Source of the DNA: an uncultured bacterium
GTDB lineage: Bacteria; Fidelibacterota; UBA2242
NCBI GenBank assembly: GCA_964589175.1
Contig: CAZPRY010000001.1
Location: forward strand, 56,253 to 120,252
Direction: 5' to 3'
Length of the DNA stretch: 64,000 bases
Positions within the stretch are counted from its first letter, which is position 1; every line of letters begins with the position of its first letter. Both the position numbers and the translations under genes were made by a program. The notes beneath the pieces are model-generated. The model saw nothing but the letters and a program-made list of their open reading frames with translations, searched no databases and was not told the origin of the DNA. Positions 21,036 through 38,048 of the stretch are shown here, piece after piece.

Positions 21036-22493
21036 GTGTTCTCGATTTGCCAAAACAGACCTGTGCATTCACTTTTACTTCTATGTCTGGTTGTTTGTCT
21101 TGGTTGGCATTGCGGACCGCCTTCCGACGCCGTTGTCGCCCGCTTCGGCAAACAAAAGATCTTGCTCGGAGAATTCAAAATCGGCTACCTTGACCTGCTG
21201 AAAAAGCCGCATGTCCTGGATTCGGCGGAGTTACGTGAAAATTTCCTGAATGAGATGATCAACCAGCGTCTGATTGCAGCTGCGGCGCGCGCGCGCGGCT
21301 TGCAGAACGATGATAAATTCCGCTACAGAGTCGATGCTTATCGCGATAAATGTCTGCGGGATGCTCATTACCAGGAAATTATTCAACCGCAAATCCGGGT
21401 TGATGAAGAAAAATTGAGAGAAGTATATTCGTATATTACTCAACAGCGGCATCTTCGCCACTTCTTCTTTAAAACCGAAGAAGAGGCTGATCAATATTAT
21501 CAGCGATTATTGGACGGCGAATCCTGGGATGCGCTGGCAGCGGAAGTTATCGCGGATAGTTTGCTGGCCTGCAATGGAGGCGACCTGGGCTGGGTTTACT
21601 GGGACCAGCTGGAATACGAAATGGGCCTGGCGGCGTTTCGCCTGAAAGTCGATGCGATTTCAGCGCCGGTGTCGTCATCGTTCGGATTTCATATCGTCAA
21701 GGTTGTGGATTACCGTATCGATCCGCTCGTCTCCGAAACGGAATTCGACCAGCGCCGCCGCAAAGTGAAATTTATGCTGGAAAAGAAAATCGGCGATAAA
21801 CTCGCGGCGGATTATATCACCGCGATGATGACCGCTAAGCACCTGCAAGTCCGCACCGACATTCTACGGATACTTTCGCAGAAGTTCATGTCCCCGTTCA
21901 GCCGCAATCCATCCCCGTATGATCAGATGCTGGAAGCGCAACTGACCCCCGCGGAAACCCGTGCGCTGGAAAATAAGTTCTGGGATTATCGCAACGCAAC
22001 GCTGGTTATCATCGATGGGAAACCGCTGACGGTCGGGGAATTTATTTATCAGCTGAATTATGTTCCCTTTGCGGCTGTCCGGCAGGGATTCAAAACGGCT
22101 TTGGATTTCGTGATCCGCGACCGGGTCCTGACCGATGAAGCCCGGCAAATGAAGCTGGAACGCAAATATCCGGCTGTTCGGCAGAAGGCTGTTATTTACG
22201 AAGATTACCTGCTGCAAACGGAACTGCGCCGGGACTTGGTTCGGAGTATCGAAATCAGCGAAGCGGCGATTGGGGACCGGTTCGAACGCGACCGGAATTC
22301 GCTTTACAAACAGTTGGAATTGGGGGAAGTTCGGGATACGATTTATGAAATCCTGGTCCAGGAAGCAAGACAGCGGGTAGTTAGCGACCTGATTGCGGAA
22401 TTACGAAGCCAGCAGAGCATCCGGACCGATTACCGGCCGATTCACACCTATTATGACAATCTGAAAAATGCGAGTACGGAGAACGAAAATTGA
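21036..22493 (+). CDS. Parvulin-type peptidyl-prolyl isomerase (SurA/PrsA-like chaperone)
   Basis: 485 aa with a signal/lipoprotein-like N-terminus. The PpiC domain reads GGDLGWVYWDQLEYEMGLAAFRLKVDAISAPVSSSFGFHIVKV. It has SurA-like N- and C-terminal chaperone regions. Confidence 0.7.
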   Translation: MFSICQNRPVHSLLLLCLVVCLGWHCGPPSDAVVARFGKQKILLGEFKIGYLDLLKKPHVLDSAELRENFLNEMINQRLIAAAARARGLQNDDKFRYRVDAYRDKCLRDAHYQEIIQPQIRVDEEKLREVYSYITQQRHLRHFFFKTEEEADQYYQRLLDGESWDALAAEVIADSLLACNGGDLGWVYWDQLEYEMGLAAFRLKVDAISAPVSSSFGFHIVKVVDYRIDPLVSETEFDQRRRKVKFMLEKKIGDKLAADYITAMMTAKHLQVRTDILRILSQKFMSPFSRNPSPYDQMLEAQLTPAETRALENKFWDYRNATLVIIDGKPLTVGEFIYQLNYVPFAAVRQGFKTALDFVIRDRVLTDEARQMKLERKYPAVRQKAVIYEDYLLQTELRRDLVRSIEISEAAIGDRFERDRNSLYKQLELGEVRDTIYEILVQEARQRVVSDLIAELRSQQSIRTDYRPIHTYYDNLKNASTENEN

Positions 22494-25399
22494 ATATCGG
22501 TCTGACGACAAAACGAATCCTGACAAGCCTGTTGTTTCCCCTGCTGATCGGATGGGCGCAGGTCACCGGTTTGCGGGAAGATTTCAATGATAATCTTTTA
22601 ACCGGCTGGGAAGTCCCGGCAGCGCACCAGGTTACCTACCAGATCGCCGAGACGGACAGTATGCTGGTGATTGCATATCACCGGACGGTCGCCAGTGGTG
22701 AATGGGATGTGATCAATTTTACACCGCCAGGCTTGATTGACATATCGGAGTTTGCCTTTATATCGATCCGGGCCAAATCCGATATCAAAACCGAACTGGT
22801 TCTGAAACCGAAATATGAAAACAGTGGCGATGACTGGCTGGAGCTGCAGTTGCCGGCCGATAATACCTGGCACAGCTACTTTTTCGAACTGGAGGCCGCG
22901 CCGCCGCTGGTTATGAACCGGATGTATCTTTACCTGGATGGCGGCACAAGCGCAATAAAATCCGGCACGATTTGCCTGGATGATTTCTGCGCGGGCGACC
23001 AGGTTGATACGAGCTATGTCGATGTGAGTTTGCTGGAAACGGCCATTACGGCAGCGATGGCCCTGTATAGTAATTCCGTCGAGGGCGACGGAGAAGGGTG
23101 GTTTCAATCCGGATCGAAAGCCGCCTTTCTTACGGCCATTCATGCGGCCCAGGGACTGATCGGTTCCGACTCCCTGACGCCGGAAAAGGTGGAAAAAGCA
23201 ACCTTGAGCCTATATGACGCCTGCGTCACTTTCGAGACGCAGGTCAATACGATTGATGTCGGAATCATTGACCGTATTGCCACGTGCGAAACCCGCTACC
23301 TGTACGCCAACCTGAAGAAACTGGCCCCGGATTACCTGATTTTTGGAATGCATGATGTCACGGGTTACGGTGTCGGCTGGAGCGGTGACGATGATCGCAG
23401 CGATGTCAAGGATGTCTGCGGCTCCTACCCGGCGCTCTACAGTGAGGATATGAATAAAATTACCCGGGGTATCGACGTCGATCGCGTGCGTTACCGCGTG
23501 ACTTCGGCCTACAATCGCGGCGGTATCACGACCTTTTCCTGGCATCAGATCGATCCGCTCGGCCGCGGATTCAATGCCAGCGATGTCAATCATGAAAACA
23601 TCGTCGCCACCTTGATACCGGGCGGGAAATATCACGAGGTATATAAAGAAAAACTACGTACGATCGCAATTTTCCTGAAGTCCCTGCGCGGACTGAATGG
23701 GCAAAATGTCCCGATCATCTTCCGACCTTATCACGAACATACCGGCGGCTGGTTCTGGTGGGGTGCCGGCGAGTGCAGCATAGACCAATACAACAGCATC
23801 TGGCAATTTACGGTTGGATTCCTGCGCGACTCGCTCAATGTGCATAATGTGTTGTATGCGCTCTCCCCTGCCGGTCAGCACGTTAATAGAAAAGAAGATT
23901 ATTATAATATTTTTCCAGGCGTCGATTATGTCGACATCTTTGGAGTTGACGATTATTTCAGCGACAATATCACGGAGTTCGAAAAGCATGAGTTTCAGAA
24001 GACCCTGTGTTACTGTGTGGAGGCCGCCCGCGATCACGATAAGGTTGCAGCACTGACCGAAACCGGCCAGGAGAATTTGCCGACCTCAAACTTTTTTACC
24101 GACGCCCTGCTGGAGCCCATCAAAACCGACACTATCGCCATGAAAATATCCTACGCCGCGGTCTGGCGCAATTCCTACGAACTGCATCATTTTGCGCCCT
24201 ACCCGGGGCATCCTACGGTTCCGGATTTCCTGGAATTTTACCGCGATCCGTTTACCTTGTTTGAAGACAATTTGCCCGATATGTACCGGCTGACCACAGC
24301 CGATTCCGCCTCACCTGTTTTCGTTGGTTATCCCGGGGAATACTTTGTCGCCTTCGATACGACGATCACATTGTCGGTCACGACTAACGAGCGCGCCTTC
24401 CTGCGCTACAGCGTAGCGGATGAATCCTACGAAATGATGCAATCCGAATTTCAAAACGGGCAGGGCACACTGTATCACAGCACGGAAGTTACCGGCCGGC
24501 AGGGCGGCGAGTATCGTTTTTATGTGCGCGCCGCCGATTACGCCGGTAATATTAGCGCTGCTCCGCTTGTCATCGATTTCAAGATCGATACTTTGCAGAA
24601 GCCGGTGCACTGGTTTGATAATCGTTATGCTGTCGACGATTGGCCGCAAGCCGCCGCCCCCTTCGTTTTCCAGGGCGAACAGGGTGGAGCGACGGCTGTC
24701 AATCCGGTGAGAACGGCCTATTTCCGCAAGACCTTCAGGCTGGAGAACGCCGCCGCCCAACGACAACTAATTGTACACCTGAACTATGATAATGGATTTG
24801 TGATCTATCTGAACGGCAACGAAGTCGATCGTCACGGAGTTCCCGAAGGGGATATCGCTTACGAAACCTGGGCGATGTCGGCCGCTTCCGGTCTGATGAC
24901 GCGGACCCTGGATGCCGCCGATTGCCGGTACCTGGTCGACGGTGAAAACTGGATCGCTGTGGAAGTTCACCAGGCAGAGTCGGATTCCAGCGATCTGCTC
25001 TTCGACCTGAGAATGATGGCGCCCACGTACCTCATCGAATTTGGCGCTAACTGGTATTATTACGATCTGGGTCAGCAGCCGCCGGATCGGACGGTAGGTA
25101 CGCTGGGAATTATTCCCGACTATACGGCTCTTCCGGAGAAATTGCTGCTCTACCCGAATTATCCAAATCCGTTCAATGCCGAAACGACGATCCGGTACTA
25201 TTTGCCGCAAAGCGAAGAAGTGAGCATGGCAATCTATGATATCCGGGGACGCAATATCAAAACGCTGGTTTCGGGTAAGCAAGCTTCCGGGCTGTATAGA
25301 ATCAATTTCGAGGCCGGTGACTTATCGACGGGAATTTATCTGCTGCGTATTGTCGCGGGGCAAGCGGCGGACACGCAGAAGTTGCTGCTGTTAAAATAA
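22490..25399 (+). CDS. Glycoside hydrolase family 26 (beta-mannanase-like) with GH2-N-like sugar-binding domain and T9SS C-terminal domain
   Basis: 969 aa. The GH26 signature region is FRPYHEHTGGWFWWGAGEC plus WHQIDP. Near aa 740 is a YFRKTFRLENAAAQRQLIVHLNYDNGFVIYLNG jelly-roll, as in GH2 N-terminal domains. The C-terminus reads YPNYPNPFNAETTIRYYLP...GIYLLRIVAG...K. It overlaps the PPIase by 4 nt. Confidence 0.75.
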   Translation: MNIGLTTKRILTSLLFPLLIGWAQVTGLREDFNDNLLTGWEVPAAHQVTYQIAETDSMLVIAYHRTVASGEWDVINFTPPGLIDISEFAFISIRAKSDIKTELVLKPKYENSGDDWLELQLPADNTWHSYFFELEAAPPLVMNRMYLYLDGGTSAIKSGTICLDDFCAGDQVDTSYVDVSLLETAITAAMALYSNSVEGDGEGWFQSGSKAAFLTAIHAAQGLIGSDSLTPEKVEKATLSLYDACVTFETQVNTIDVGIIDRIATCETRYLYANLKKLAPDYLIFGMHDVTGYGVGWSGDDDRSDVKDVCGSYPALYSEDMNKITRGIDVDRVRYRVTSAYNRGGITTFSWHQIDPLGRGFNASDVNHENIVATLIPGGKYHEVYKEKLRTIAIFLKSLRGLNGQNVPIIFRPYHEHTGGWFWWGAGECSIDQYNSIWQFTVGFLRDSLNVHNVLYALSPAGQHVNRKEDYYNIFPGVDYVDIFGVDDYFSDNITEFEKHEFQKTLCYCVEAARDHDKVAALTETGQENLPTSNFFTDALLEPIKTDTIAMKISYAAVWRNSYELHHFAPYPGHPTVPDFLEFYRDPFTLFEDNLPDMYRLTTADSASPVFVGYPGEYFVAFDTTITLSVTTNERAFLRYSVADESYEMMQSEFQNGQGTLYHSTEVTGRQGGEYRFYVRAADYAGNISAAPLVIDFKIDTLQKPVHWFDNRYAVDDWPQAAAPFVFQGEQGGATAVNPVRTAYFRKTFRLENAAAQRQLIVHLNYDNGFVIYLNGNEVDRHGVPEGDIAYETWAMSAASGLMTRTLDAADCRYLVDGENWIAVEVHQAESDSSDLLFDLRMMAPTYLIEFGANWYYYDLGQQPPDRTVGTLGIIPDYTALPEKLLLYPNYPNPFNAETTIRYYLPQSEEVSMAIYDIRGRNIKTLVSGKQASGLYRINFEAGDLSTGIYLLRIVAGQAADTQKLLLLK

Positions 25400-25407
25400 G
25401 GGAAACT

Positions 25408-26901
25408 GTGAAGATGAACGGCAATCCGAAATATTCCGCTCTTTTGATCTGGGGCCTGTGCTTAGCGTCTTTTCAGCAGGCGTTGGCTGTCGATTTTCCC
25501 CTCGTTTACGAAGCCGAAGAGGCGGCTTACGAAAGCCTGAAACTACGCTCCGATACGAAGGCCTCCGGTGGCGAATACCTGCAAATGCGCAAAAGCGGAA
25601 AAGTCGTTTGGAACATCGTTATGAGCGATGCGGGATGGTACAATCTCACGTTCCGGTACCGGTCGCCGCGGGGCGAGAAGGAGAACTTCGTTATTCAAAA
25701 CGGGGTAAAGCGGCCGATGGGATTCGGCCTAGCGGTAACCTGGACCGAAACGGCAAGACCGCTGGCCCTGAAGGCCGGTACCAATACCATTGAACTGGCG
25801 AGTAACTGGGGATGGATCGATATCGATTGCCTGATGATCGATACGGTTGTCCTTACCCCCGAAATTACACCGCACAAAAACGTCTTTTATACCAAATTTC
25901 CGCGTGATATTTTTGTTAAAGTCAATGCTTACGGACGATCGATTCAGTCGGTAACAGCAAACGGTTCACCATTGTTGTTCGACATGAATCCGTACGAATT
26001 CGAAGAGGACGCCCGGATGGTCAGGATTGACGGCCAATCACTTGCCGCATTACCGGAAGGCGAACATGCGATTTCGATTGATTTTGATACGGACGAATCC
26101 GTGACATTTCAACTCCGGGTAATGACCGGGCGGGCAGCTGCTGATTTGACGATCATTGCTCCCGATGTAAGTCACGGCAATTCGGTGTTGTTTCTCTTAC
26201 CGAACGGTAAAACGATGCTGGTGGATTGCGGGCAGGCCTTTATTCGCGATGGCGTGATTATCCCTTTATTAGAGCAAAACGGCATTTCTCACCTGGATTA
26301 TTTTATCCTCACGCATTATCATGACGATCATGACAGCGGTGATAAGGGCGCAACGATCCGCGACAGATTCAAGGTTGAAAATTTCCGGGATTACCGGGAT
26401 TTCAATGCCGGAGAGGAACTGGAAATCGGCGGCGTGCAGATTAAGATCCTGAACGCCTATGCGGACGGCACGGACGAAAATACCCGTTCCCTGGCATTTC
26501 AGTTGAAGTACAAGGGCTTTGTCTATCGCCATGATGCCGATATTTACGCCGATAACCAGCGCTCGATCATGCGCCGTTTTCCTGATGATGTCAGGGCCGA
26601 TGTCTATTTTGCCAATCATCACTTTCACGGCTCGTCCGATGCGGACTATCTGCGCGCCACCGATCCGACGGTCGTGCTCATTCAGGCTGAACAGGCGCTG
26701 TATGCCCGCAGCACCTACACGACGACATATCTGCTCGAGACAGTCAAATGGCTTCAGGACAACGAAGCGAAAACCGTTGAGAATTTACCGGCGATTGAAG
26801 TTGGAACGACGGTTATCCGGGTCAATTCGGTTGACGATTGGAACTATGAAACCTATAAAAACAGTGAAACTCCGCTTATCCCGTTTCTTCCTAAACGATG
26901 A
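25408..26901 (+). CDS. Secreted metallo-beta-lactamase-fold hydrolase (ComEC/Rec2-type MBL domain) with N-terminal CBM6/35-like domain
   Basis: 497 aa with a signal peptide. The N-terminal region is CBM-like (FPLVYEAEEAAYESLKLRSD...GEYLQMRKSGKVVWNIVMSDAGWYNLTFRYRS...IDIDCLMID). The MBL motifs are HGNSVLFLLPNGKTMLVDCG and LTHYHDDHDSG. Confidence 0.65.
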   Translation: MKMNGNPKYSALLIWGLCLASFQQALAVDFPLVYEAEEAAYESLKLRSDTKASGGEYLQMRKSGKVVWNIVMSDAGWYNLTFRYRSPRGEKENFVIQNGVKRPMGFGLAVTWTETARPLALKAGTNTIELASNWGWIDIDCLMIDTVVLTPEITPHKNVFYTKFPRDIFVKVNAYGRSIQSVTANGSPLLFDMNPYEFEEDARMVRIDGQSLAALPEGEHAISIDFDTDESVTFQLRVMTGRAAADLTIIAPDVSHGNSVLFLLPNGKTMLVDCGQAFIRDGVIIPLLEQNGISHLDYFILTHYHDDHDSGDKGATIRDRFKVENFRDYRDFNAGEELEIGGVQIKILNAYADGTDENTRSLAFQLKYKGFVYRHDADIYADNQRSIMRRFPDDVRADVYFANHHFHGSSDADYLRATDPTVVLIQAEQALYARSTYTTTYLLETVKWLQDNEAKTVENLPAIEVGTTVIRVNSVDDWNYETYKNSETPLIPFLPKR

Positions 26902-26946
26902 ATTTATACGGCGGTTAAATTTGGGGAACTGGGGTTTGGAATTAAA

Positions 26947-28560
26947 ATGAAGCGACGTGAATTCTTATCGCAGGTGGGTAAGAGCGTCGGCGGCGCGTGC
27001 CTGCTGCCTTTGATGTCCAATCTTTGCCGCTGCAGTGCCGGTCCAGCAAAAAAACAAAATGTCTTGTTCATTATTCTGGAAGATTTGAATACACAACTGG
27101 GCTGCTACGGCCGGCCGTATATGCATACGCCCAATATCGATCGTCTGGCCGGGGAAGGGATTTTGTTTAAGCGCGCCTATGTCCAGCAGGCCGTGTGCGC
27201 CGCCTCGCGTGCCAGCCTGTTTACCGGTTTGCATCCGGAATCGACCGGCGTCGATTACCCCTACAGTTACTATTTTGTCGAGGAGCTTTTGCCCAAATAC
27301 GGGACCCTGGCCCGGCAGTTTTTCAGGCACGGTTATTACACGCGGGATTTCAGCAAAATCCATCACGGCATTGTGGAAGACGATCTTTCCGCGCCGCACT
27401 TCGAGCCCCAATACCGGCCGTACATGCTTGCCGAAAACATCCGTCTCAGAGAAGAGAAGGGCAATTCGGCCACGCCGCCGTACGAGATGGCGGATTTGCC
27501 CGATGCCGAATATGCCGACGGACAGACAAGCGGGGCGGTGATCTCGGCCCTGCAGCTTGCCGCCCGGAGTGATGCACCGTTTTTCTTCTCGGTTGGATTT
27601 CTGAAACCGCATATTCCTTTCAATTCCCCCAGGAAATACTGGGATTTATACGAGCGCGAATCCATTCCACTAGCCGGGAACAAAGACCGCCCGGTGAATT
27701 TCCCGCCGATTGCCATGGATCGTTACAACCTGAAGCAATACACCTGGGAACACGACGATCCCGAGCGGCTGTTCAGCGATGATTATGCCCGCCTCATTCG
27801 TCATGCCTATTTCGCCTGCGTGAGCTTCATCGACGCGCAGATCGGGCGGATTCTTAATGAGTTGGATCGGTTGAAATTGCGGGAGAATACGACTGTCATT
27901 TTCCTGTCCGATCACGGCTTTCATCTGGGCGAGCAGAATCATTGGGGTAAAACGACCTTGTACGAGGCTTCGCTGCATGTTCCGCTTATCGTTTCAGTGC
28001 CGGGCATGAAGCTAAAGGGCGCTACCTGCAACGGACTGGTTGAATACGTGGACATCTACCCGACGTTGCTGGATCTGGCCGGAATTGAAATTCCCGATCA
28101 GGTTGAAGGTGTTAGTTTCAGGCCGCTGCTCGAAGAACCGTCGCGTAGGTGGAAGAGGGCGGCTTTCAGCCAACAGAGCCGCAGCATGATCGGTGAGAAA
28201 TACGGATTTTCGATGCGCACCGACCGCTATCGCTATACGGAGTGGAAGGAAGTCCTGCTGAACACAGTCCTGGCCCGTGAGTTGTACGATCTGGAGAACG
28301 ATCCCGATGAGACGATCAATATCGCCGGTCAATCGCGACCCGATTTGATCGATGTTTTATCACAACAACTGAAATCCGGCTGGCGCGGCGCTCTGCCGGA
28401 TGGTATCCGCAACCGCTCCGCCAATCCGCCGGCGCCGCCGGCCTATCCCTGGGGGCCTGAAGGGCAAAGTCGCCGCGATGTCTGGCATCGGAAATACGGC
28501 GGGAAAGAGGGCGACGACTGGCGGGAACTGACCCGCATTCGGATCGCACAAGACGCGTAA
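26947..28560 (+). CDS. Sulfatase (formylglycine-dependent arylsulfatase family), TAT/Sec exported
   Basis: 537 aa. The N-terminus has RREFL, and the sulfatase signature is CAASRASLFTG (the C-x-A-S-R FGly motif). The fold runs through FLSDHGFHLGE. Confidence 0.85.
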   Translation: MKRREFLSQVGKSVGGACLLPLMSNLCRCSAGPAKKQNVLFIILEDLNTQLGCYGRPYMHTPNIDRLAGEGILFKRAYVQQAVCAASRASLFTGLHPESTGVDYPYSYYFVEELLPKYGTLARQFFRHGYYTRDFSKIHHGIVEDDLSAPHFEPQYRPYMLAENIRLREEKGNSATPPYEMADLPDAEYADGQTSGAVISALQLAARSDAPFFFSVGFLKPHIPFNSPRKYWDLYERESIPLAGNKDRPVNFPPIAMDRYNLKQYTWEHDDPERLFSDDYARLIRHAYFACVSFIDAQIGRILNELDRLKLRENTTVIFLSDHGFHLGEQNHWGKTTLYEASLHVPLIVSVPGMKLKGATCNGLVEYVDIYPTLLDLAGIEIPDQVEGVSFRPLLEEPSRRWKRAAFSQQSRSMIGEKYGFSMRTDRYRYTEWKEVLLNTVLARELYDLENDPDETINIAGQSRPDLIDVLSQQLKSGWRGALPDGIRNRSANPPAPPAYPWGPEGQSRRDVWHRKYGGKEGDDWRELTRIRIAQDA

Positions 28561-28593: not shown

Positions 28594-28623
28594 AATGCCA
28601 TGATTCCGTCGAATCATGGCATT
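28594..28623. terminator. Bidirectional hairpin terminator between the convergent sulfatase and Fe-S genes
   Basis: A 13-bp perfect stem (AATGCCATGATTC / GAATCATGGCATT) with a 4-nt loop. It lies 34 nt after the sulfatase stop and 63 nt after the minus-strand gene stop. Confidence 0.5.
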
Positions 28624-28685: not shown

Positions 28686-29723
28686 TTAGTGGATCAGGGC
28701 ACTGAGGTTGCGGGTGAAAACCGGGAAATACTTCGCGTCGGTGCCCGGGTAGAAATCTTTTAATTTATCGGACAGGGATGCCAGCAGTTTCGGGTCCGGT
28801 TCGCCGCGCAGGATTTTGCCGGTTTCCTCGGCGCTGATATCTTCAAACCGGCCGGCCTGCCGGACGACTTCACGATTCACGGGACAATGCAGCTGACATT
28901 TTATGCAGCCCATCAGGGCGTTGTGGGCTTTGGCCGGAATCCAGGCGGGAAACTCACCCGGCACTTCGTTATACAGGGAGAGGCAGTTTCCGGCGCTGAT
29001 GATGAAGTTTTCATCAGGAATACATTTGGTCGGACACAGGCTGCGGCAGATCTTACAATTCTCGCAGGCCTCCACCATTTGTATTTCGCCCCAGTGATCT
29101 TCCGGAAACTGGAAATCGGTAAAGAAGGCCCAGAGCACCAGGAAAGTGCCCATACCGTCCACGAAACAGATATTGTTGCGGCCGTATTTTCCCAGTCCGC
29201 TGCGCACCGCCAGTAACTTAAGCGGGATTTTGTAGGTATTCTCAATCTGATGGTCGGGTTCTTTGATAATTTCCGTCTGAACAATGTTGAGCATCTGTTC
29301 CATCGTGGAGCCATCATCGAAATAGGAAGGCGGAACAATCAAATCGTAAACCTTGTCATTCCAGTGGAAATTGACATACATCATCCGGGCGGCGGTGGCC
29401 ATAACGATCAGCGACCTGGCGTTGGGCATTTCTTCCGGTAGATCAGCCGTGAATTTGCTGATATAACGGCGGAAAGTGGCTTGCTCGCTGATTTTTCCTT
29501 CGCGTTTGAGCTGCTCATAAAAGTCAACAGCTTCCTTTAGATGTTCCACCGAAAATGTTCTGTAGCGATAGGTGATCTCGGGGACCTCGGTCGGACTTTG
29601 CGCCAGATTGGGGAAGGCCCAAGCTCTTTGCAAAGTCAATGGAGAAAGGGCGCCGGCCAGCAGGATCGTTTTCAGGAAATCACGGCGGGAAAAGGCAGGC
29701 GAAAAACGCGCTATCATCTTCAT
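28686..29723 (-). CDS. TAT-exported Fe-S protein of the epoxyqueuosine reductase (QueG) / reductive dehalogenase superfamily
   Basis: The twin-arginine signal is SRRDFLKTILLAGALSPLTLQRAWA. The core shows a QueG-like pattern (GLGKYGRNNICFVDGMGTFLVL...) and two Cys clusters (CENCKICRSLCPTKCI and AGNCLSLYNEV...CIKCQLHCPVN). Start placed at the internal Met (MKMIARF); the track ORF begins 66 nt earlier. Confidence 0.6.
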   Translation of the reverse strand: MKMIARFSPAFSRRDFLKTILLAGALSPLTLQRAWAFPNLAQSPTEVPEITYRYRTFSVEHLKEAVDFYEQLKREGKISEQATFRRYISKFTADLPEEMPNARSLIVMATAARMMYVNFHWNDKVYDLIVPPSYFDDGSTMEQMLNIVQTEIIKEPDHQIENTYKIPLKLLAVRSGLGKYGRNNICFVDGMGTFLVLWAFFTDFQFPEDHWGEIQMVEACENCKICRSLCPTKCIPDENFIISAGNCLSLYNEVPGEFPAWIPAKAHNALMGCIKCQLHCPVNREVVRQAGRFEDISAEETGKILRGEPDPKLLASLSDKLKDFYPGTDAKYFPVFTRNLSALIH

Positions 29724-29871
29724 CTCCAGGTTGTGCGAAATTTGGAAAATTACGCCGTACATGCTATTGATGTTGTAGCGTAATGCCAACGGAATTTCGA
29801 TAAACGGTCAAATCACCGGTTAAGCGTATGCTTTCCATCTGCGAGCGAGTCTGTGCCGGAACAAATTTTCT

Positions 29872-31932
29872 CTATTTCAAATAATTGATTTTGATCGTGC
29901 TCGTGATCCGGTTGTGACTCTGCATCTGCACGAAATAAATACCGCTGGGCAGATTCTTTCGAAAAGCCTGATTCACGTCGAACAACACCTCGTGCCAGCC
30001 CGAAGACAGGGCGCTAATGTCGATCACGGCGACCAGCTGCCCGAGCATGTTGTAGATCTTGATCAACTTTAAGCCGCCAGGGCCCTCGGTAGAAATATAA
30101 ATCCGCAGGGTAGTCATCGAATTGAACGGATTGGGATAATTGCCGGCGATGAATGAGATCGGTACGACCGTATTTTGCCGGATTTGATCGACAGTAGCGG
30201 TGCCGTCATATTCGTTGTCATAATCGGCGATGTACGCCGTGTAGCGGCAGCGGATATTGTAGAGCAGGCTGAGATCGATCAACTGCTGTTTCAATTCCGG
30301 AGTCTCACCGTAAATTTCGATTTCCCATTCGAGCGCATCGATCATCTGCTTGGCCCACAGCGTCTCGACGAATTTGACCGTGTCCTGCTGGACGCTGAAA
30401 TCCAGCAGGAAGTCGTAAGCCCGGGGGCCGCCGGCGGAGTACCCGGCGATGCTCATGGCCGAAATGCCGGGATTGGCGTAACGTCCGCAAGTAAAGAAGC
30501 ATGAACCGGCGTAGGTGGACGGAATCGTCTGCGGCAAAATTTGCGATAGAGATGCCTGGCCGTATTCGATGGAAACGTCTTTGAGGACCGGTTGGCTGAT
30601 CTGGCTGAAGACCCGCTGCATCCCGGCTGCCAGGTTTTTTTCTTCATTGAGGTAAGTGACGAACCCGTAATTCAGATTGGCCAGCATTTCCAGGCGGGCG
30701 ACGTTGGGCTGATCGCCGATGCCGATCGGAAAAATGCCGGTTTTATGAGTATTCAACGATTCAATCTCGCGTGGATCGACCACATCGTAACCGCCGGTGA
30801 AGACCAGAATGGCATTGTTGTAATTATCATCCTGGATCTGATTCAGGCAAAGTTTAAGCCCCTCGTCCAGCATTGAGCCGGAACCGGTGGATAATCCGGA
30901 CAGATAACTTTTCGCCTCAGAAATGTTCGCCGTCGTGGGCGCAACCGGCTGATTTTTCCATGTAGAGGCGTTATATCGATAACACAGAAGATTGAAGCGA
31001 TCATTCATATTAAGATCGTCAAGAGCTTCGGAGATGCAGGCGATACTCTGGCTGAGTTTGTACCCGAACATGCGGCTGGATAGGGAAACGAGAAACAGGA
31101 TCCGGCGCGGCAGAAGACTGTCCGGTGGTACCTCGGCCTGGGGGCGGATAAAAAGCCCGAAATGCCCGTCACAGCTATCGTTCGCGACCGAAAAGAAATC
31201 GACGCCGAGTTCCGCCTGTTCGACTTTGTAGTAGAATTTCAGATTGTTGTTGATATAGGCCTTGGGCTGTGACAATTTAAGTTCCAGATGACGGCTTTGC
31301 GATTGAGAAATCCGAAAATCCGGGTGGGTTGGGATGTCGAATTCCGTAATCGGTGAATTCGAGTCGATGTGAATTTCGACTTCCAGCTGATCCAGCGGCC
31401 AAGTGACAAAATCCCCGGTCCCCAGCGGATAGTTGTAAGTACATTTGCCCCGGTAATAATCCAGCCGGCTGATATAGCGCAGCTGCACGCGCTGGACCGC
31501 GCCGGGTTTTATGCCCTTTAACAGGATTTTGATGCCGTTGCTGCCGATGTACTGGTTCACCAGGGCCGCGACGCCGCCTTCACCGGTGCCGGGATTGACG
31601 GCCTGCTCTCTGACTTTCAGCACGGCCTGGTAGACCTTGTCCTCGTACCAATAAAGAAAACGCGTGGCGCGCGCATCAACCGGTAAGGGAAAGGAATAGA
31701 CCACGTCGGTGGAATCGGTCCACTCGTTGACAAATTCCTGGTAGACGTAGGTTTCGGCAACAAGCCCGTGGATATCCACCATGACCTGGGTCAGGCGGTT
31801 GCGCAGGAAGTCTTTGGGGTAATTTTCATCGGTCGGCATCATTAGTCCGTCGGCGCATAGCATACCGGCCCAAAGCAAGACGAGTACGGTCAGAGAAATA
31901 TATTTGCTTTTCATGATAGTTAGCTCCTTCAC
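29872..31932 (-). CDS. Secreted VIT (vault/inter-alpha-trypsin) + von Willebrand factor A domain protein with T9SS C-terminal sorting domain
   Basis: 686 aa. Has a signal peptide and a VIT-like N-terminus (VYQEFVNEWTDSTDVVYSFPLPVDARATRFLYWYEDKVYQAV). The vWA region is ILFLVSLSSRMFGYKLSQ. The C-terminus reads NYPNPFNSMTTLRIYIS...GIYFVQM...K. It overlaps the upstream gene by 4 nt and is the last gene of the operon. Confidence 0.7.
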   Translation of the reverse strand: MKELTIMKSKYISLTVLVLLWAGMLCADGLMMPTDENYPKDFLRNRLTQVMVDIHGLVAETYVYQEFVNEWTDSTDVVYSFPLPVDARATRFLYWYEDKVYQAVLKVREQAVNPGTGEGGVAALVNQYIGSNGIKILLKGIKPGAVQRVQLRYISRLDYYRGKCTYNYPLGTGDFVTWPLDQLEVEIHIDSNSPITEFDIPTHPDFRISQSQSRHLELKLSQPKAYINNNLKFYYKVEQAELGVDFFSVANDSCDGHFGLFIRPQAEVPPDSLLPRRILFLVSLSSRMFGYKLSQSIACISEALDDLNMNDRFNLLCYRYNASTWKNQPVAPTTANISEAKSYLSGLSTGSGSMLDEGLKLCLNQIQDDNYNNAILVFTGGYDVVDPREIESLNTHKTGIFPIGIGDQPNVARLEMLANLNYGFVTYLNEEKNLAAGMQRVFSQISQPVLKDVSIEYGQASLSQILPQTIPSTYAGSCFFTCGRYANPGISAMSIAGYSAGGPRAYDFLLDFSVQQDTVKFVETLWAKQMIDALEWEIEIYGETPELKQQLIDLSLLYNIRCRYTAYIADYDNEYDGTATVDQIRQNTVVPISFIAGNYPNPFNSMTTLRIYISTEGPGGLKLIKIYNMLGQLVAVIDISALSSGWHEVLFDVNQAFRKNLPSGIYFVQMQSHNRITSTIKINYLK

Positions 31933-34283
31933 TTCAGGTACAGAATTTTAGCGGATTCGGTGTGAGTTTTTCCGTTATCGTCCCGCATCGAGAGTTTCGC
32001 GATGTACAATCCGGAGCCGATCGGAAGTCCTTGTTCGTTGCCGGTATTCCAGACAAAATGGGTATACGCATTTGGCGTCAGGCTGAATTTCCTGACCAGC
32101 TGCCCGAGCACATTGTAGATCAGGATATCGCCCGGCCGGTAGCGATCGCTGTCGATCCGGAAGGTGATTTCCTGGTTAAAGGGATTGGGATAAAAAGTCA
32201 GTACACGCAAACCGCTGCCGGCCGATGGCGGCTGGTAAGCAAAAGTCTGAATGGCGCCTCTGCCCTCGAAATGGATTTCAACGCACAAAAGATTCGAATC
32301 GCCCGAAGTGGAAGAACTGGTATAGGTGAGTACATATTTTTCGACGGCGAAAAGATTGGTGATATCCAGCAGAATGTCGCGATATTTTCCCGTAATGTCA
32401 TAAAAACTACCGCCGGTGGGTAGTACGATCGGATTCATCCACTCCGTCTGATGCTTCAACTGGCCGATTCCGTAAATCGTGATATCCATACTCAGCATTC
32501 GGTTGACGACTTGCTCTTTTGTGTAGTTATGTTCCGGGTAAGGCTCGTCGGTAATCCAGATGATGGTGCGTTTGCTGCCGGGGCGCCAGGAGAGTTGCGT
32601 GGCGCGATACAAGGCAGCGGGTGAATCTTCGATTCCTCCCCAGAGCTGGATACTGGCCAGATTTGCCTTGATCTGATCGATATCGTTGGTGAAGTCCCAT
32701 ACGTCGTCGATCGTGGTGCTAAAGGTGACAACTCCGATCTGGAAATCGTAGCCGTTGCGGGCGAGAGTTTCGGCAAACTCGTTGAGATTGACTCGCACAC
32801 TGTCGATGTCGTCACCCATGCTGCCGGAGCAATCCAGAACGAACACTATATCCACCAGGGTCGCGCCGCCGGTTGTCTGTTTTCCGAATTCAAAATCGGT
32901 GATCGGCAATCCGTTTTCGGAAATGGTGAGATTCTCCAAGGAAAGATCCCGAATCCGGTATTTTGTATCCTTGTCTTCCACAGTAAAAATGAAGGAAACC
33001 TCGGGAAAATTCTCTGTAATGATTGTATCGGGAGTGATGACCAAACCGGTGTCCGACATCGGAACTCCCGGCATGAAGATATTGCGCCGCATTTCATCAA
33101 ACAACTCGCCATCCTTACGGAGTTCGACGATGAGCGGCAGGATAAAATCCTCGTACACTACTTTGGATTGGAGCTCAGCCTGGGCAAAGGCCATCTCGCT
33201 GGCAGGCACGCTAATGGTAATATTTGTATCGGCAGATTGAATGGCGTCCGGCAGGGTGAGTTCCAGCTTCGCATCGGTGATCCCGGAACCGGTTTCATTG
33301 AAGATTTCAATGTAAGTCTTGAAATCGCGCGGAAACAGCCGGTTATTGGTTAACGAAAATGCAGTCGGGGCATCCCAGCGCAGCAACAGGCCGGTCGAAA
33401 AATCGGGTTCTTTCAACTGCAAGACTGTTACAGCGGTTTTCGTCGCGCCGGGCGGGAGTTCCTCTTCCGGCCAGTAGATTTTCAGGGCCAGGTCATAAAT
33501 CTTGCGCAGGAGGCTGTTTTCGAATTCCGGAGCGGGGGAAGTGTAGATATCCGCCCAGTTGGCGGCAATGATACGTTCCGGTATGGTATTCGGAAAAGCC
33601 AGATCGATTCCGATGCCCTTTGCTCCTGCCGACTTCTCCCAGATTGAAACCGGCGTCGACGCGTCCGGGGCAAGGAGAATTGTATCGTTGTCGATCCACT
33701 GCTGGTCCAGCATCAAGGCGCCGTCCCCCCATTGGCCGAGGGCCGGATCGAAAACCAGGCCGAGTCCCATTGCGTGCGCGATTGTATCCAGATTACTGAT
33801 CGCACAAGCAATCTCAAATGACTGGGACTCGCTTTGATAGACAAGGGTAAACTCGAAAGTTACTCTTTGGCTGTCGACTGCGTTGAAGCTGAGCGTGTCA
33901 CCGGAAATTTCGAGTGAAGTTATGGCTTGATTCGTGAAGTAATCCTCGGCCCTGTACCAGGTGCCATCGACGGAGAAAACGGGATAGGATGTTTTCGCGT
34001 AGGGGTGGCCATAGGCGATGGCACAACGGTCATCCGCCATTGAGGAGGAAATACCGCCGGTTGTTCCGAGGGTAAAATAGCCGCCGTCGATCATAGTCAT
34101 GGCGGCCTGATCGTCATCCCAGTCCAGATAATCGAAGCTGACGAGCGGCCAGCCGGAACTCGTTTTCCCCAGGCCGGGGGCCTCAAGATCGAATTCGGAT
34201 TTGTCAATCGGGGCTGCTGTCAGGATGTAGCAAACAACCACTAGAAACAGGCTAAGTTTTTTCATAGTGCCTCCTTTATACAA
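31929..34283 (-). CDS. Secreted vWA-domain (MIDAS) protein with T9SS C-terminal sorting domain
   Basis: 784 aa. The vWA domain with a DxSxS MIDAS motif is VDIVFVLDCSGSMGDDIDSVRVNL...GVVTFSTT...IIWITDE. The C-terminus reads FYPNPFNQEITFRIDS...GLYIAKL...K. The start may be the internal MKKLSLF (34265). Confidence 0.7.
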   Translation of the reverse strand: MYKGGTMKKLSLFLVVVCYILTAAPIDKSEFDLEAPGLGKTSSGWPLVSFDYLDWDDDQAAMTMIDGGYFTLGTTGGISSSMADDRCAIAYGHPYAKTSYPVFSVDGTWYRAEDYFTNQAITSLEISGDTLSFNAVDSQRVTFEFTLVYQSESQSFEIACAISNLDTIAHAMGLGLVFDPALGQWGDGALMLDQQWIDNDTILLAPDASTPVSIWEKSAGAKGIGIDLAFPNTIPERIIAANWADIYTSPAPEFENSLLRKIYDLALKIYWPEEELPPGATKTAVTVLQLKEPDFSTGLLLRWDAPTAFSLTNNRLFPRDFKTYIEIFNETGSGITDAKLELTLPDAIQSADTNITISVPASEMAFAQAELQSKVVYEDFILPLIVELRKDGELFDEMRRNIFMPGVPMSDTGLVITPDTIITENFPEVSFIFTVEDKDTKYRIRDLSLENLTISENGLPITDFEFGKQTTGGATLVDIVFVLDCSGSMGDDIDSVRVNLNEFAETLARNGYDFQIGVVTFSTTIDDVWDFTNDIDQIKANLASIQLWGGIEDSPAALYRATQLSWRPGSKRTIIWITDEPYPEHNYTKEQVVNRMLSMDITIYGIGQLKHQTEWMNPIVLPTGGSFYDITGKYRDILLDITNLFAVEKYVLTYTSSSTSGDSNLLCVEIHFEGRGAIQTFAYQPPSAGSGLRVLTFYPNPFNQEITFRIDSDRYRPGDILIYNVLGQLVRKFSLTPNAYTHFVWNTGNEQGLPIGSGLYIAKLSMRDDNGKTHTESAKILYLK

Positions 34284-34301
34284 GTCATTGCACGAATGTT
34301 T

Positions 34302-34715
34302 TTATCTCAATAATACCATTTTCCTTGTCGCCGCAAACTCCCCAGCCCGAATGCTGCAGATGTAGATGCCGCTCGGTACGAGCTGCCCGGCGTCGTCGAT
34401 GGCGTTCCAGTTGATCCGGTACTGCCCGGGATTCTGCCGCTCGTTGACCAGGGTCGCGATCAGTTTGCCGTTTAGGTCGTAAATGCGGATCAGGACGGTG
34501 TGGTTTGCCGCTCCGGCGGGCAATTCGTAAGAAATCACCGTGGTAGCGTTGAAGGGATTGGGGTAGTTCTGGTCGAGACGGAAGTTCTCTGGCCCGGGAT
34601 TTTTCTCCTCGTCAATATCCGTGGTCGCGTCGTAATCGATGAAGAAGCCGTTCGTATTCGAGCTCCAGAGGCTGTCGCCCTCCCAGCTGCGGGCCAGGAC
34701 CTTCCAGAAGTAGGT
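34302..34715 (-). repeat. ~414-bp near-identical DNA repeat, copy A (3' end of 34302-36146 gene: FN3-like + T9SS CTD coding)
   Basis: By-eye DNA alignment with 36149-36562 gives ~90% identity. The encoded 137 aa differ at only ~20 positions. Confidence 0.7.
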
Positions 34716-36146
34716 CTTGCCGGCGGCTAAAGAATCGATCGTATAGGTTGCGTCGCCGATTCCGGTTATGATACGTGGATTTGAGAATTCCAGGTCTTCT
34801 GCGATATAAAGATCATAGCCGACTTCCCAGGGAAAATTCTTCTCGATATCCGTAGCCTGATTCCATGTAAACTCGGGTTTACGGGTTTTTAGCGATGAGT
34901 CATCTTCCGGCAGGATAGTCTGGAAAAGGCGCAGGTTGTGAGAAACGATTTCATTGGAGAAGGACTTTCCGACAATGGCATATCTTGAACCACATTCCCA
35001 GAATATGATAAAGCGCCTAATACCAGCTGAAATCGAAGGATAGGTCTGCCAAGATCGTGTAAAGGAATTCACCTGAAATTCAGGCCCGATTCTATTTCCT
35101 GAGTTATCGAAAACCTGGGCAAATATTCCGTAGCCTGAGCCATCCTGTTCCCAACTTTGCCAGGCGATGATGAATTTATCCTCAGCAAAGGCCTGGACGG
35201 CTGGTAGTTCCTGCTGGGCATCTGTGTATGAATTAACCTGGAGTTCGGAACCGACTTGATTGCCGTTGTTATCGAAGATTTGAGCATAAATTCCTTCTTT
35301 GGAACCATCCTGCTCAAAACTCATCCAGCAGATGACGAACTTATTTTCACCAAGAACTGCTATAGCCGGGCGGCTCTGGGCTTGAGGTAAATAGGAGTTG
35401 ACCTGGAACTCGGAACCGAATCTGTTTGCTTGTGCATCGAAGAGTTGCGCGAATACCCCGACGTAAGCTCCGTCCTGATACATGCTTTCCCAGCAGATCA
35501 CAAACTTGCCATCGCTTAAAACGCATACTTCCGGATATTGCTGTGAGCTGGGCGTATAGGTGTTGACCTGGAATTCGGAAGCGATTGGATTCCCATTGCA
35601 GTCAAATAGTCTGGCGAATATACCGCTATTTGCTCCATCCTGCCAATCGCTCTGCCAGCAGATAACAAATTGATCGTTGGGGAGCGTGGCAATTGAAGAA
35701 TTCCATTGACCCTGATCAGTGTAAGTGTTCACCTGAAATTCTGATTTTACCCGCAGACCGCTTTGGTCAAACATCTGTGCGAAAACTTCATAACCAGGAT
35801 TACCGTGCCAGCAAATCACAAATTCACCGTTTTGAAGTGCAGTAATCGCAGGGAAATGTTGGTCGCTTTTCGTATATGTGTTCGCAATAAATTCATAACT
35901 AAGCTGAACACCGTTTTCATCTAGTAATCGTGCGTACACATCGGCATGAGTTGTCCAGCTAACCGCGAATTTACCATTGGATAAAATCGTTGAAGCAGGA
36001 AACATTGGTATATAATGTCGGTCAGTATAAGCACAGACCGTAAATTCAGGGTGGCGCGATACGCATTGCCCGAAGAGAATGTCAAGTAGTGCGTAAAGGA
36101 CGATGGCTAGCAAAAGCCGTTCTCGAAGTTTGATTGTGAATGTCAT
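34302..36146 (-). CDS. Secreted protein built of ~7 tandem ~52-aa repeats (propeller-like blades) + FN3-like region + T9SS C-terminal domain
   Basis: 614 aa. The repeat unit is EFQVNTYT.DQ..P.I.AL.NGEFVICW.....DG...GVFAQ.FD..G...GSEFQVN. The C-terminus reads NYPNPFNATTVISYELP...GIYICSIRAG...R. Confidence 0.65.
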   Translation of the reverse strand: MTFTIKLRERLLLAIVLYALLDILFGQCVSRHPEFTVCAYTDRHYIPMFPASTILSNGKFAVSWTTHADVYARLLDENGVQLSYEFIANTYTKSDQHFPAITALQNGEFVICWHGNPGYEVFAQMFDQSGLRVKSEFQVNTYTDQGQWNSSIATLPNDQFVICWQSDWQDGANSGIFARLFDCNGNPIASEFQVNTYTPSSQQYPEVCVLSDGKFVICWESMYQDGAYVGVFAQLFDAQANRFGSEFQVNSYLPQAQSRPAIAVLGENKFVICWMSFEQDGSKEGIYAQIFDNNGNQVGSELQVNSYTDAQQELPAVQAFAEDKFIIAWQSWEQDGSGYGIFAQVFDNSGNRIGPEFQVNSFTRSWQTYPSISAGIRRFIIFWECGSRYAIVGKSFSNEIVSHNLRLFQTILPEDDSSLKTRKPEFTWNQATDIEKNFPWEVGYDLYIAEDLEFSNPRIITGIGDATYTIDSLAAGKTYFWKVLARSWEGDSLWSSNTNGFFIDYDATTDIDEEKNPGPENFRLDQNYPNPFNATTVISYELPAGAANHTVLIRIYDLNGKLIATLVNERQNPGQYRINWNAIDDAGQLVPSGIYICSIRAGEFAATRKMVLLR

Positions 36147-36148
36147 AT

Positions 36149-38020: not shown

Positions 38021-38048
38021 CTTCTTGCTCCGGCTCCGGCTTTGTTAT

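What the first reader, a model, noticed from the sequence alone, without database searches (positions are those of the whole stretch)
28686..29723. Twin-arginine-exported QueG-like / reductive-dehalogenase-superfamily Fe-S protein
A textbook TAT motif (SRRDFLK + AWA cleavage site) precedes a core matching the epoxyqueuosine-reductase pattern (GLG-x-GxN...two Cys4 ferredoxin clusters...C-x-S-Y). Canonical QueG is cytoplasmic and acts on tRNA, and canonical RDases are larger. A ~345-aa periplasmic family member suggests a different, extracytoplasmic substrate. It is convergent with the sulfatase and shares a hairpin terminator with it.
Basis: partly seen in the sequence, partly recalled or inferred. 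Interest (0 to 1): 0.5.

Follow-up and report, generated by a model that had tools for sequence, protein, structure and literature searches.

The report
Exported QueG-like reductase of unknown substrate
This gene encodes a small iron-sulfur enzyme that is predicted to fold like the vitamin-B12-dependent enzymes QueG and reductive dehalogenase but carries an export signal. It belongs to a large, unstudied family, usually mislabelled 'epoxyqueuosine reductase', whose substrate is unknown.

Summary
The minus-strand ORF 28686-29723 is real. It opens with SRRDFLK, a hydrophobic stretch and AWA, and it carries the eight-cysteine, two-cluster motif of QueG.

It is not QueG. It scores 71 bits against a cutoff of 200 on TIGR00276, lacks PF08331, and has a variable residue where QueG has its catalytic Asp. 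Its C-terminal helical domain is half the length of QueG's tRNA-binding domain.

It is not a recognisable RdhA either: 38 bits against a cutoff of 160 on TIGR02486, no PF13486 and no rdhB next to it.

The family is large: about 520 clusters at 50% identity, found in at least 582 species genomes. Most members are about 305 aa with no signal peptide and come from Asgard archaea and Bathyarchaeia, which are not known to make queuosine. Only bacterial members carry the conserved RR signal.

In 8 independent RR-type loci, a fused NapH-NapG-like membrane polyferredoxin lies directly downstream. It was never found next to signal-less members. This window has no such partner.

Best reading: a Tat-exported corrinoid/[4Fe-4S] reductase from an uncharacterised third branch of the QueG/RdhA superfamily. 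The substrate is unknown and corrinoid binding is unproven.

The parts
28686..29723 (-). ORF of the QueG-like protein (345 aa from ATG 29723; the likely true start is ATG 29717, giving 343 aa; stop codon 28686-28688)
   Evidence: A 98.4% nt strain variant (L084) has the same neighbours, with 12 synonymous and 9 non-synonymous codon differences and none within the first 129 residues, which include the whole signal region.
29724..29727 (-). GGAG Shine-Dalgarno-like box, 6 nt upstream of the second ATG (29717)
   Evidence: Read from the sequence. Gene callers use the 343-aa start.
29616..29723 (-). Predicted Tat signal peptide, residues 1-36. SRRDFLK is encoded at 29670-29690, followed by the h-region TILLAGALSPLTL and AWA before F37.
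   Evidence: TIGR01409 17.8 bits against cutoff 16.7. The motif is conserved in bacterial orthologues. pLDDT is below 65 here, as expected for a signal peptide.
29088..29576 (-). N-terminal alpha/beta domain (about residues 50-212), predicted to have a QueG-like cobalamin-binding fold. Contains family-invariant Y134 (in PPxY), K169 and G176-L-G-x-Y180-G-R-N183-N184.
28869..29087 (-). Ferredoxin-like domain (about residues 213-285) with 8 invariant Cys for two [4Fe-4S] clusters. By homology, the proximal cluster uses C230, C247, C273 and C276, and the distal cluster uses C220, C223, C226 and C280. Invariant N252-E253 lie in the insert that lines QueG's active site.
   Evidence: PF13484 at 32 bits. 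Alignments to QueG and PceA. QueG cluster assignment from PMC5175355. Conservation.
28689..28868 (-). Short C-terminal helical domain (about residues 286-345, four short helices). It corresponds to a truncated version of QueG's HEAT-like domain. Family-conserved residues are E300, T301, K320, R338 and N339.
   Evidence: Secondary structure of the model. The QueG RNA-binding domain spans Leu257-Leu385, about 128 aa. Conservation.
28594..28623 (.). Perfect 13-bp inverted repeat with a 4-nt loop, lying between the convergent stop codons of the sulfatase gene (28560) and this gene (28686). Possible bidirectional terminator.
   Evidence: Not called by the consensus terminator scan.

Best explanation
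The gene encodes a Tat-exported redox enzyme from a distinct, uncharacterised family within the class-III cobalamin enzymes (the QueG / reductive dehalogenase / CblC fold).

Proposed mechanism:
1. The protein folds in the cytoplasm and acquires two [4Fe-4S] clusters and, most probably, a base-off corrinoid there (inferred).
2. It is exported folded through the Tat pathway by its SRRDFLK signal, which is probably cleaved after AWA (inferred).
3. In the periplasm, electrons enter at the distal cluster (C220/223/226/280) and pass to the proximal cluster (C230/247/273/276). They then reduce the corrinoid to Co(I), which attacks a small extracytoplasmic substrate.
4. The family-invariant polar residues (Y134, K169, Y180, N183/N184, N252/E253, H267) would supply substrate binding and protons.
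5. In about a third of related RR-type loci, the electron donor is probably an adjacent fused NapH-NapG-like membrane polyferredoxin, a quinol dehydrogenase type. In this genome the donor is not encoded nearby.

The enzyme is not epoxyqueuosine reductase. Its substrate is unknown: it could be an organohalide, an epoxide or another compound with a good leaving group.

What is shown: the ORF, the motifs, family membership, the predicted fold and the gene neighbourhoods. What is inferred: corrinoid binding, export, the electron path and the chemistry.
For: - The Tat motif is present and conserved in bacterial orthologues, while archaeal and other members simply lack the N-terminal 35-45 residues.
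- The eight Cys are 98-100% conserved, with QueG's spacing.
- The AlphaFold model has pLDDT 88 and pTM 0.80.
- It is not QueG. TIGR00276 scores 71 against 200. There is no PF08331, whereas bona fide QueGs have it. QueG's Asp134 aligns to N162, a variable column.
- QueG's Gln220 position is an invariant Glu (E253) here.
- The family comprises about 520 50%-identity clusters at E<=1e-30 and occurs in at least 582 species genomes. These are dominated by Asgard archaea and Bathyarchaeia, which are not known to make queuosine.
- A NapH-NapG fusion lies 4 bp overlapping to 45 bp downstream in L070, L073, L075, L082, L085, L086, L087 and L088. In the genome scan this was 4 of 15 RR-type loci against 0 of 64 signal-less loci, Fisher p = 9e-4.
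- Precedent: a NapGH-like quinol dehydrogenase is encoded next to Tat-exported PceA in Sulfurospirillum multivorans (PMC4585668).
Against: - There is no direct evidence of a corrinoid. The N-terminal domain has no detectable sequence similarity to the QueG or RdhA cobalamin domains. The hhalign and hmmsearch alignments cover, or are reliable over, only residues about 165-290, so the argument rests on a predicted structure.
- No cobalamin riboswitch or corrinoid gene was found in the window or in 15 related loci.
- No electron-donor partner or RdhB-like anchor was found in the 64-kb window.
- The closest RR-type relatives (WIN, L001-L004, L011, L031) are all stand-alone genes.
- Pfam's TAT model scores below threshold.
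- Export has not been tested experimentally.
- The substrate cannot be inferred.
Confidence: 0.65

Rival explanations
1. It is functionally a reductive dehalogenase: a compact, divergent RdhA that removes halogens from natural organohalides in the periplasm, either respiratory or detoxifying.
For: - It has a Tat signal plus two [4Fe-4S] motifs plus the class-III fold, as in respiratory RdhA.
- A NapGH-type partner occurs in related loci, paralleling the S. multivorans pceA region.
- Several paralogues occur per genome in some MAGs, and the family is found in sediment lineages where organohalides occur.
- A family-invariant Tyr (Y134) and Lys (K169) could mimic the Tyr/Lys-Arg proton-donor pair of RdhAs (NpRdhA K488 variant entries).
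Against: - TIGR02486 scores 37.6 against a cutoff of 160, and PF13486 is not detected.
- There is no adjacent rdhB.
- PceA's Arg305 position is not conserved.
- The active-site residues are markedly polar or charged (K169, E253, H267, R338), unlike the hydrophobic pockets of PceA.
- The Asgard proteins described as RDases carry PF13486 and are a different family (PMC6737245).
Confidence: 0.2
2. It has the fold but no corrinoid. It would be a periplasmic Fe-S electron-transfer or other-cofactor protein (for example flavin, as in the related nitroreductase fold) that works with other secreted enzymes.
For: - No corrinoid-related gene or riboswitch was found nearby.
- The N-terminal domain shows no sequence match to known cobalamin domains.
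Against: - The strongest structural matches are all cobalamin binders, and FMN nitroreductases score far lower.
- The GLGxxGxN segment shared by QueG and RdhA is invariant.
- About 15 invariant polar residues outside the clusters argue for a catalytic pocket rather than a simple electron carrier.
- The proximal-cluster geometry motif is retained exactly.
Confidence: 0.1
3. It is the organism's genuine cytoplasmic epoxyqueuosine reductase, and the RR N-terminus is a mis-called start or is non-functional.
For: - Public pipelines name relatives 'epoxyqueuosine reductase'.
- QueG is the best PDB hit by both sequence and fold.
Against: - All three candidate starts include the RR motif, and the next Met (M99) would delete a conserved part of the mature domain.
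- The signal is conserved in orthologues.
- It fails the QueG equivalog cutoff, lacks PF08331, lacks the catalytic Asp, and its C-terminal domain is half the size of QueG's tRNA-binding domain.
- The family is abundant in archaea, which are not known to have queuosine.
- The mature protein is acidic, pI 5.5.
Confidence: 0.03

Closest known systems
Epoxyqueuosine reductase QueG (B. subtilis 5D08/5D0B/5T8Y; S. thermophilus 5D6S; TIGR00276)
   Same: - Same order of domains: cobalamin-type alpha/beta domain, then a ferredoxin insert, then a helical C-terminus.
- Identical 8-Cys motif and spacing.
- Shared GLGxxGxN and C-x-S motifs.
   Different: - 16-19% identity.
- 71 bits against the 200-bit equivalog cutoff.
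- No PF08331.
- The catalytic Asp134 position is variable.
- The DYH motif is replaced by PPxY(Y/F)DDG.
- Gln220 is replaced by an invariant Glu.
- The C-terminal domain is about 60 aa instead of about 128 aa.
- It carries a Tat signal.
- The family is common in archaea.
Respiratory reductive dehalogenase RdhA (PceA 4UQU; PceA2B2 complex 8Q4H; TIGR02486/PF13486)
   Same: - The GLGxxGR segment aligns.
- In Sulfurospirillum, a NapGH-like quinol dehydrogenase is the proposed electron donor, as suggested here for related loci.
   Different: - RdhAs are 450-550 aa and carry PF13486.
- This protein scores 37.6 against 160 on TIGR02486.
- It has no rdhB neighbour.
- Its active-site residues differ.
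Catabolic cytoplasmic reductive dehalogenase NpRdhA (4RAS/6ZXU)
   Same: - It illustrates that one superfamily branch can exist in cytoplasmic and exported versions, as this family does.
   Different: NpRdhA is about 700 aa with a fused reductase module. There is no meaningful sequence similarity outside the ferredoxin region (E 2e-3).
CblC / MMACHC (3SOM)
   Different: CblC has no ferredoxin domain and is a trafficking/dealkylase protein.
NapGH quinol dehydrogenase (and the MauM/MauN family)
   Same: The protein encoded directly downstream of RR-type family members in 8 loci matches NapH over its N-terminal membrane part and NapG over its C-terminal polyferredoxin part.
   Different: The two parts are fused in one 480-530 aa polypeptide. 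Scores are below the NapG/NapH equivalog cutoffs. No such gene is present in this window.

Membership tests
QueG (tRNA epoxyqueuosine(34) reductase, TIGR00276) | Scores at or above the curated equivalog cutoff (200 bits) | tested here: not met
   71.3 bits, matching only residues 142-286.
QueG (tRNA epoxyqueuosine(34) reductase, TIGR00276) | N-terminal QueG domain PF08331 (DUF1730) | tested here: not met
   No hit at E<=1. All 120 E. coli-type QueGs carry PF08331 plus PF13484.
QueG (tRNA epoxyqueuosine(34) reductase, TIGR00276) | Catalytic general-acid Asp (Bs D134 / St D130 / Ec D139) | tested here: not met
   It aligns to N162. That column is R/K/P/F/L across 277 family members.
QueG (tRNA epoxyqueuosine(34) reductase, TIGR00276) | D-Y-H motif above the corrin (St D100-Y101-H102) | tested here: inconclusive
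   The topologically equivalent loop reads PPxY134(Y/F)DDG. A Tyr is 98% conserved, but the flanking Asp and His are not. The alignment in this region has low confidence, and no coordinates were available to check it.
QueG (tRNA epoxyqueuosine(34) reductase, TIGR00276) | C-terminal six-helix HEAT-like tRNA-binding domain (about 128 aa) | tested here: not met
   Only about 60 residues (four short helices) follow the last Cys motif.
QueG (tRNA epoxyqueuosine(34) reductase, TIGR00276) | Cys-x2-Cys-x2-Cys-x3-Cys ... Cys ... Cys-x2-Cys-x3-Cys motif for two [4Fe-4S] clusters | tested here: met
   C220/223/226/230, C247, C273/276/280. Spacing is 16 and 25 residues, against 15 and 25 in Bs QueG.
QueG (tRNA epoxyqueuosine(34) reductase, TIGR00276) | Cytoplasmic enzyme acting on tRNA in queuosine-making organisms | tested here: not met
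   It has a conserved Tat signal. The family is abundant in Asgard archaea and Bathyarchaeia. Archaea use archaeosine rather than queuosine (PMC4646009).
QueG (tRNA epoxyqueuosine(34) reductase, TIGR00276) | It is the genome's only queG (or a second, canonical queG/queH exists) | not testable with these tools
   Only 64 kb of the genome is available, and it holds no second QueG-like ORF.
Reductive dehalogenase RdhA (TIGR02486 / PF13486) | Scores at or above the subfamily cutoff (160.35 bits), or carries the PF13486 domain | tested here: not met
   37.6 bits. PF13486 was not detected at E<=1.
Reductive dehalogenase RdhA (TIGR02486 / PF13486) | N-terminal Tat signal (respiratory type) | tested here: met
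   SRRDFLK. TIGR01409 scores 17.8 against 16.7.
Reductive dehalogenase RdhA (TIGR02486 / PF13486) | Adjacent rdhB membrane-anchor gene | tested here: not met
   No small hydrophobic ORF lies in either flank. None was seen in the related RR-type loci either.
Reductive dehalogenase RdhA (TIGR02486 / PF13486) | Carbon-halogen bond reduction | not testable with these tools
   This needs an enzyme assay.
Class-III cobalamin-dependent enzymes (QueG/RdhA/CblC fold) | Cobalamin-binding alpha/beta core followed by a two-[4Fe-4S] ferredoxin insert | tested here: met
   [not shown]
Class-III cobalamin-dependent enzymes (QueG/RdhA/CblC fold) | Binds a base-off corrinoid | not testable with these tools
   This class has no sequence motif diagnostic of corrinoid binding. 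It needs UV-vis, EPR or ICP-MS.
Tat substrates | S/T-R-R-x-F-L-K motif, moderately hydrophobic h-region and A-x-A site at the N-terminus | tested here: met
   S12RRDFLK18, then TILLAGALSPLTL (mean Kyte-Doolittle hydropathy 1.36), then AWA36. NCBIfam passes and Pfam PF10518 is below its cutoff. The motif is conserved in orthologues.
Tat substrates | Tat-dependent export | not testable with these tools
   This needs a reporter fusion or cell fractionation.

The most novel reading that the evidence does not exclude
The family is a third functional branch of class-III B12 enzymes, alongside QueG and the reductive dehalogenases, and it catalyses a reduction that is neither of theirs. Its polar invariant active site (Y134, K169, E253, H267, R338) suggests a polar, non-halogenated substrate, for example an epoxide or another oxygen- or heteroatom-leaving-group compound. 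The bacterial RR-type members, coupled in many lineages to a fused NapH-NapG quinol dehydrogenase, would then be terminal reductases of an undescribed anaerobic respiration. The signal-less members would be a widespread cytoplasmic activity of Asgard archaea and Bathyarchaeia.
Probability: 0.25. Interest if true: 0.8.

Novelty: new variant of a known kind. Interest (0 to 1): 0.55.

Why it matters
Only two enzymatic chemistries, dehalogenation and epoxyqueuosine reduction, are established for the corrinoid/[4Fe-4S] branch of class-III B12 enzymes. A third, large family would extend that. It has about 520 clusters at 50% identity, occurs in hundreds of species including cultured Candidatus Lokiarchaeum ossiferum, and has its own invariant active-site residues.

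The family is routinely annotated 'epoxyqueuosine reductase' (KEGG/JGI) or '4Fe-4S double cluster binding protein'. That label inflates apparent queuosine capacity and is wrong for archaea. One Asgard study used Asgard proteins annotated QueG as the outgroup for its RdhA tree; whether those are members of this family was not checked.

The exported bacterial form with an operonic NapH-NapG-type partner points to an unrecognised periplasmic electron sink in anoxic sediments. It also gives a concrete two-gene unit that can be expressed and assayed.

Tried and rejected
- Searching with E. coli QueG to build a QueG profile returned only relatives at 83% identity or more. The profile-profile alignment therefore covers only the ferredoxin core and says nothing on the N-terminal domain.
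- The metagenome scan with the single protein found only one locus, a 98% strain variant.
- Model coordinates cannot be read, so I could not check by superposition whether Y134/K169/E253 face the corrin site.
- All-against-all clustering of neighbours in 82 loci gave no family-wide partner. The recurrent neighbours (MoxR-like ATPase, vWA, MscL, TauE/SafE, thiolase, HMG-CoA synthase) are confined to Loki/Hermod genomes, and I read them as lineage synteny.
- A neighbour-joining tree needed about 12 gains or losses of the signal. Truncated sequences and NJ noise make this unreliable, so I draw no conclusion on how often the signal arose.
- Cobalamin riboswitch search: nothing in the window or in 15 RR-type loci.
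- tblastn for a NapH-NapG homologue in the window found nothing better than E 0.07, and that hit was to the target's own Fe-S motif.
- A link to the neighbouring sulfatase (and to an FGE-domain gene next to L003) was considered. I dropped it as unsupported: it occurs in 2 of about 23 loci, and the genes are convergent here.
- Seven full-text literature searches covered QueG-like or exported QueG homologues, archaeal QueG and class-III families. None found a description of this family.

Full report
THE OBSERVATION

The minus strand carries an ORF at 28686..29723 (345 aa from ATG). Three in-frame starts are possible:
- ATG 29723, with GGAG directly abutting it.
- ATG 29717, with GGAG 6 nt upstream. 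This is the start used by gene callers, and the exact 343-aa product was read on 10 contigs drawn from several metagenome samples.
- ATG 29762, giving the 358-aa product P0001.

All three retain S12-R-R-D-F-L-K18 (nt 29670-29690), a 13-14 residue moderately hydrophobic stretch, and A-W-A before F37. NCBIfam's TAT_signal model passes its cutoff (17.8 against 16.7). Pfam's TAT model does not (15.9 against 22.7).

The stronger argument is comparative. About 35 of the 120 closest database homologues, and about 17 bacterial loci I fetched, carry [ST]RRxF[LIM]K at the same distance in front of the conserved mature domain. The remaining members simply start about 40 residues later.

A 98.4%-identical strain variant (L084) has the same neighbours. 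It differs at 12 synonymous and 9 non-synonymous codons, none of them within the first 129 residues, which include the whole signal region.

- SGLGKYGRNN.
- C220-x2-C223-x2-C226-x3-C230-P.
- C247 in NCLSLY.
- C273-x2-C276-x3-C280-P.

The gene is convergent with a sulfatase gene (26947-28560). A perfect 13-bp, 4-nt-loop hairpin lies between the two stop codons (28594-28623). It lacks a good U-tract, and the consensus terminator scan did not call it.

WHAT IT IS NOT

It is not QueG:
- It scores 71 bits against the 200-bit equivalog cutoff of TIGR00276, matching only residues 142-286.
- It lacks PF08331, which every bona fide QueG has.
- QueG's general-acid Asp (Bs D134 / Ec D139) aligns to N162. 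Across 277 family members that column is R, K, P, F or L.
- QueG's D-Y-H motif is replaced by PPxY(Y/F)DDG.
- The C-terminal helical part is about 60 residues, against about 128 for QueG's six-helix tRNA-binding domain.

It is not a recognisable RdhA:
- TIGR02486 scores 37.6 against 160.
- PF13486 is absent.
- There is no rdhB-like ORF in either flank.
- The Asgard proteins published as putative RDases carry PF13486 and are a different family (PMC6737245).

WHAT IT IS

An AlphaFold model built from a 48-sequence alignment is confident: pLDDT 88, pTM 0.80, and above 90 throughout the mature protein.

The eight cysteines reproduce QueG's published motif and spacing (PMC5175355). By homology, C230/C247/C273/C276 bind the cluster next to the corrin and C220/C223/C226/C280 bind the distal one.

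Family-wide conservation across 277 sequences defines its own signature:
- Y134 (98%).
- K169 (100%).
- G176-L-x-x-Y180-G-x-N183-N184.
- N252-E253.
- H267.
- Q277.
- E300.
- R338-N339.

E253 occupies the position of QueG's Gln220, which contacts the substrate ring. The pocket therefore appears to be kept but re-equipped.

THE FAMILY

A profile search of 1.84 billion representatives finds 520 clusters (50% identity) at E<=1e-30. A scan of one genome per species finds at least 582 genomes.

Most members are 300-315 aa without a signal peptide. They come from Promethearchaeota/Lokiarchaeia, Thor-, Hermod- and Heimdallarchaeota (including Candidatus Lokiarchaeum ossiferum) and Bathyarchaeia. Others come from Chloroflexota, Aminicenantes, Zixibacteria and further bacterial groups.

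Archaea use archaeosine rather than queuosine (PMC4646009), which independently argues against a QueG function.

RR-type members were found only in bacteria: Gemmatimonadota, Neomarinimicrobiota, Aminicenantes, Bacteroidota, Melioribacteraceae, KSB1, Bryobacterales, Clostridia and others.

Sources name these proteins 'epoxyqueuosine reductase' or '4Fe-4S double cluster binding domain-containing protein'. I found no paper describing the family.

CONTEXT AND MECHANISM

In the window the gene stands alone. Upstream on the same strand are VIT/vWA proteins with T9SS sorting tails. Downstream is the convergent sulfatase. Its closest RR-type relatives are also stand-alone.

In more distant RR-type members the next gene, on the same strand and from a 4-bp overlap to 45 bp away, encodes a 480-530 aa protein. 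Its N-terminal half matches NapH/MauN, the membrane quinol-dehydrogenase subunit (PF12801). Its C-terminal half matches NapG/MauM polyferredoxin, and an internal RR segment lies between the two.

I found this pairing in eight independent loci from at least four phyla: L070, L073, L075, L082, L085, L086, L087 and L088. I never found it beside a signal-less member. In the genome scan the counts were 4 of 15 against 0 of 64, Fisher p = 9e-4.

This mirrors the NapGH-like quinol dehydrogenase encoded beside Tat-exported PceA in Sulfurospirillum multivorans (PMC4585668). It supports two points: the RR signal is functional, and exported members draw electrons from the membrane.

The window has no such gene, so the donor for this particular protein is unknown.

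No cobalamin riboswitch or corrinoid gene is nearby. Corrinoid binding remains an inference from the predicted fold.

VERDICT

This is a Tat-signal-bearing member of an uncharacterised family in the QueG/RdhA (class-III B12) superfamily. It is neither QueG nor a recognisable RdhA.

The most likely mechanism is Co(I)-based reduction of a small periplasmic substrate, fed through two [4Fe-4S] clusters. I give this a confidence of about 0.65.

The substrate is open. An organohalide is the conservative guess (about 0.2). A new chemistry is the more interesting possibility (about 0.25).

I could not test whether the genome also has a canonical queG or queH.

Noticed in passing
window 26947-28560 (+): The convergent sulfatase (PF00884 plus SGSH_C) itself begins MKRREFLSQVGK..., a twin-arginine-like N-terminus. 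It has a Cys-type CAASR active-site motif. It may also be a Tat substrate.
   Followed up: no
window 29872-40169 (-), 16304-17395 (+): Five consecutive minus-strand genes encode large secreted proteins. Four carry Por_Secre_tail (T9SS sorting) domains, combined with VIT, vWA or FlgD_ig domains; the fifth (31929-34283) matched vWA only. A PorV-like gene lies upstream. The host is a T9SS-bearing bacterium.
   Followed up: partly
window 7386-9488 and 22490-28560: There is a polysaccharide-utilisation-like cluster: two adjacent LacI-family regulators, a GH26 enzyme with a T9SS tail, a CBM35 plus metallo-beta-lactamase-fold protein, and the sulfatase. The large ORF at 17417-21025 (1202 aa) has no Pfam match; the large ORFs at 9550-13134 and 13326-16307 were not scanned.
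   Followed up: partly
window 46705-47670 (+): A single ORF combines a PRA isomerase (TrpF) domain with a C-terminal Smr domain, which is an unusual fusion.
   Followed up: no
L070 7038-8483, L073 7089-8648, L075 3447-4940, L082 7019-8620, L085 1166-2233, L086 5066-5779, L087 6044-7483, L088 6077-7561: These are fused NapH-NapG-like polyferredoxins with an internal RR segment between the membrane half and the polyferredoxin half. That layout implies a combined Sec/Tat-type insertion. The fusion itself seems undescribed and is specific to RR-type members of the family.
   Followed up: partly
L012, L015, L023, L024, L025, L028, L032, L041 (Loki/Hermodarchaeota): The signal-less homologue is preceded by a MoxR-like AAA ATPase. 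In five Loki/Hermod loci (L017, L023, L032, L037, L059) the next gene downstream is a TauE/SafE-like permease on the same strand; in others that permease lies two to four genes away. Whether this is functional linkage or just lineage synteny is unresolved.
   Followed up: partly
L076 2724-3461, L077 6232-7047; L003 1527-2117: A class-I glutamine amidotransferase gene lies directly downstream of the RR-type gene in two loci. An FGE-sulfatase-domain gene lies downstream in another. Their significance is unknown.
   Followed up: no
L055/L057, L047/L062, L053/L063, L065/L066: Several archaeal MAGs carry two paralogues of the family on different contigs. This fits a substrate-diversified enzyme better than a single-copy housekeeping one.
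   Followed up: no
window 365-4092 (+): There is a compact histidine operon (hisB-like IGPD/HAD fusion, hisH, hisA, hisF, hisIE). No tRNA gene or Rfam family occurs anywhere in the 64 kb.
   Followed up: yes
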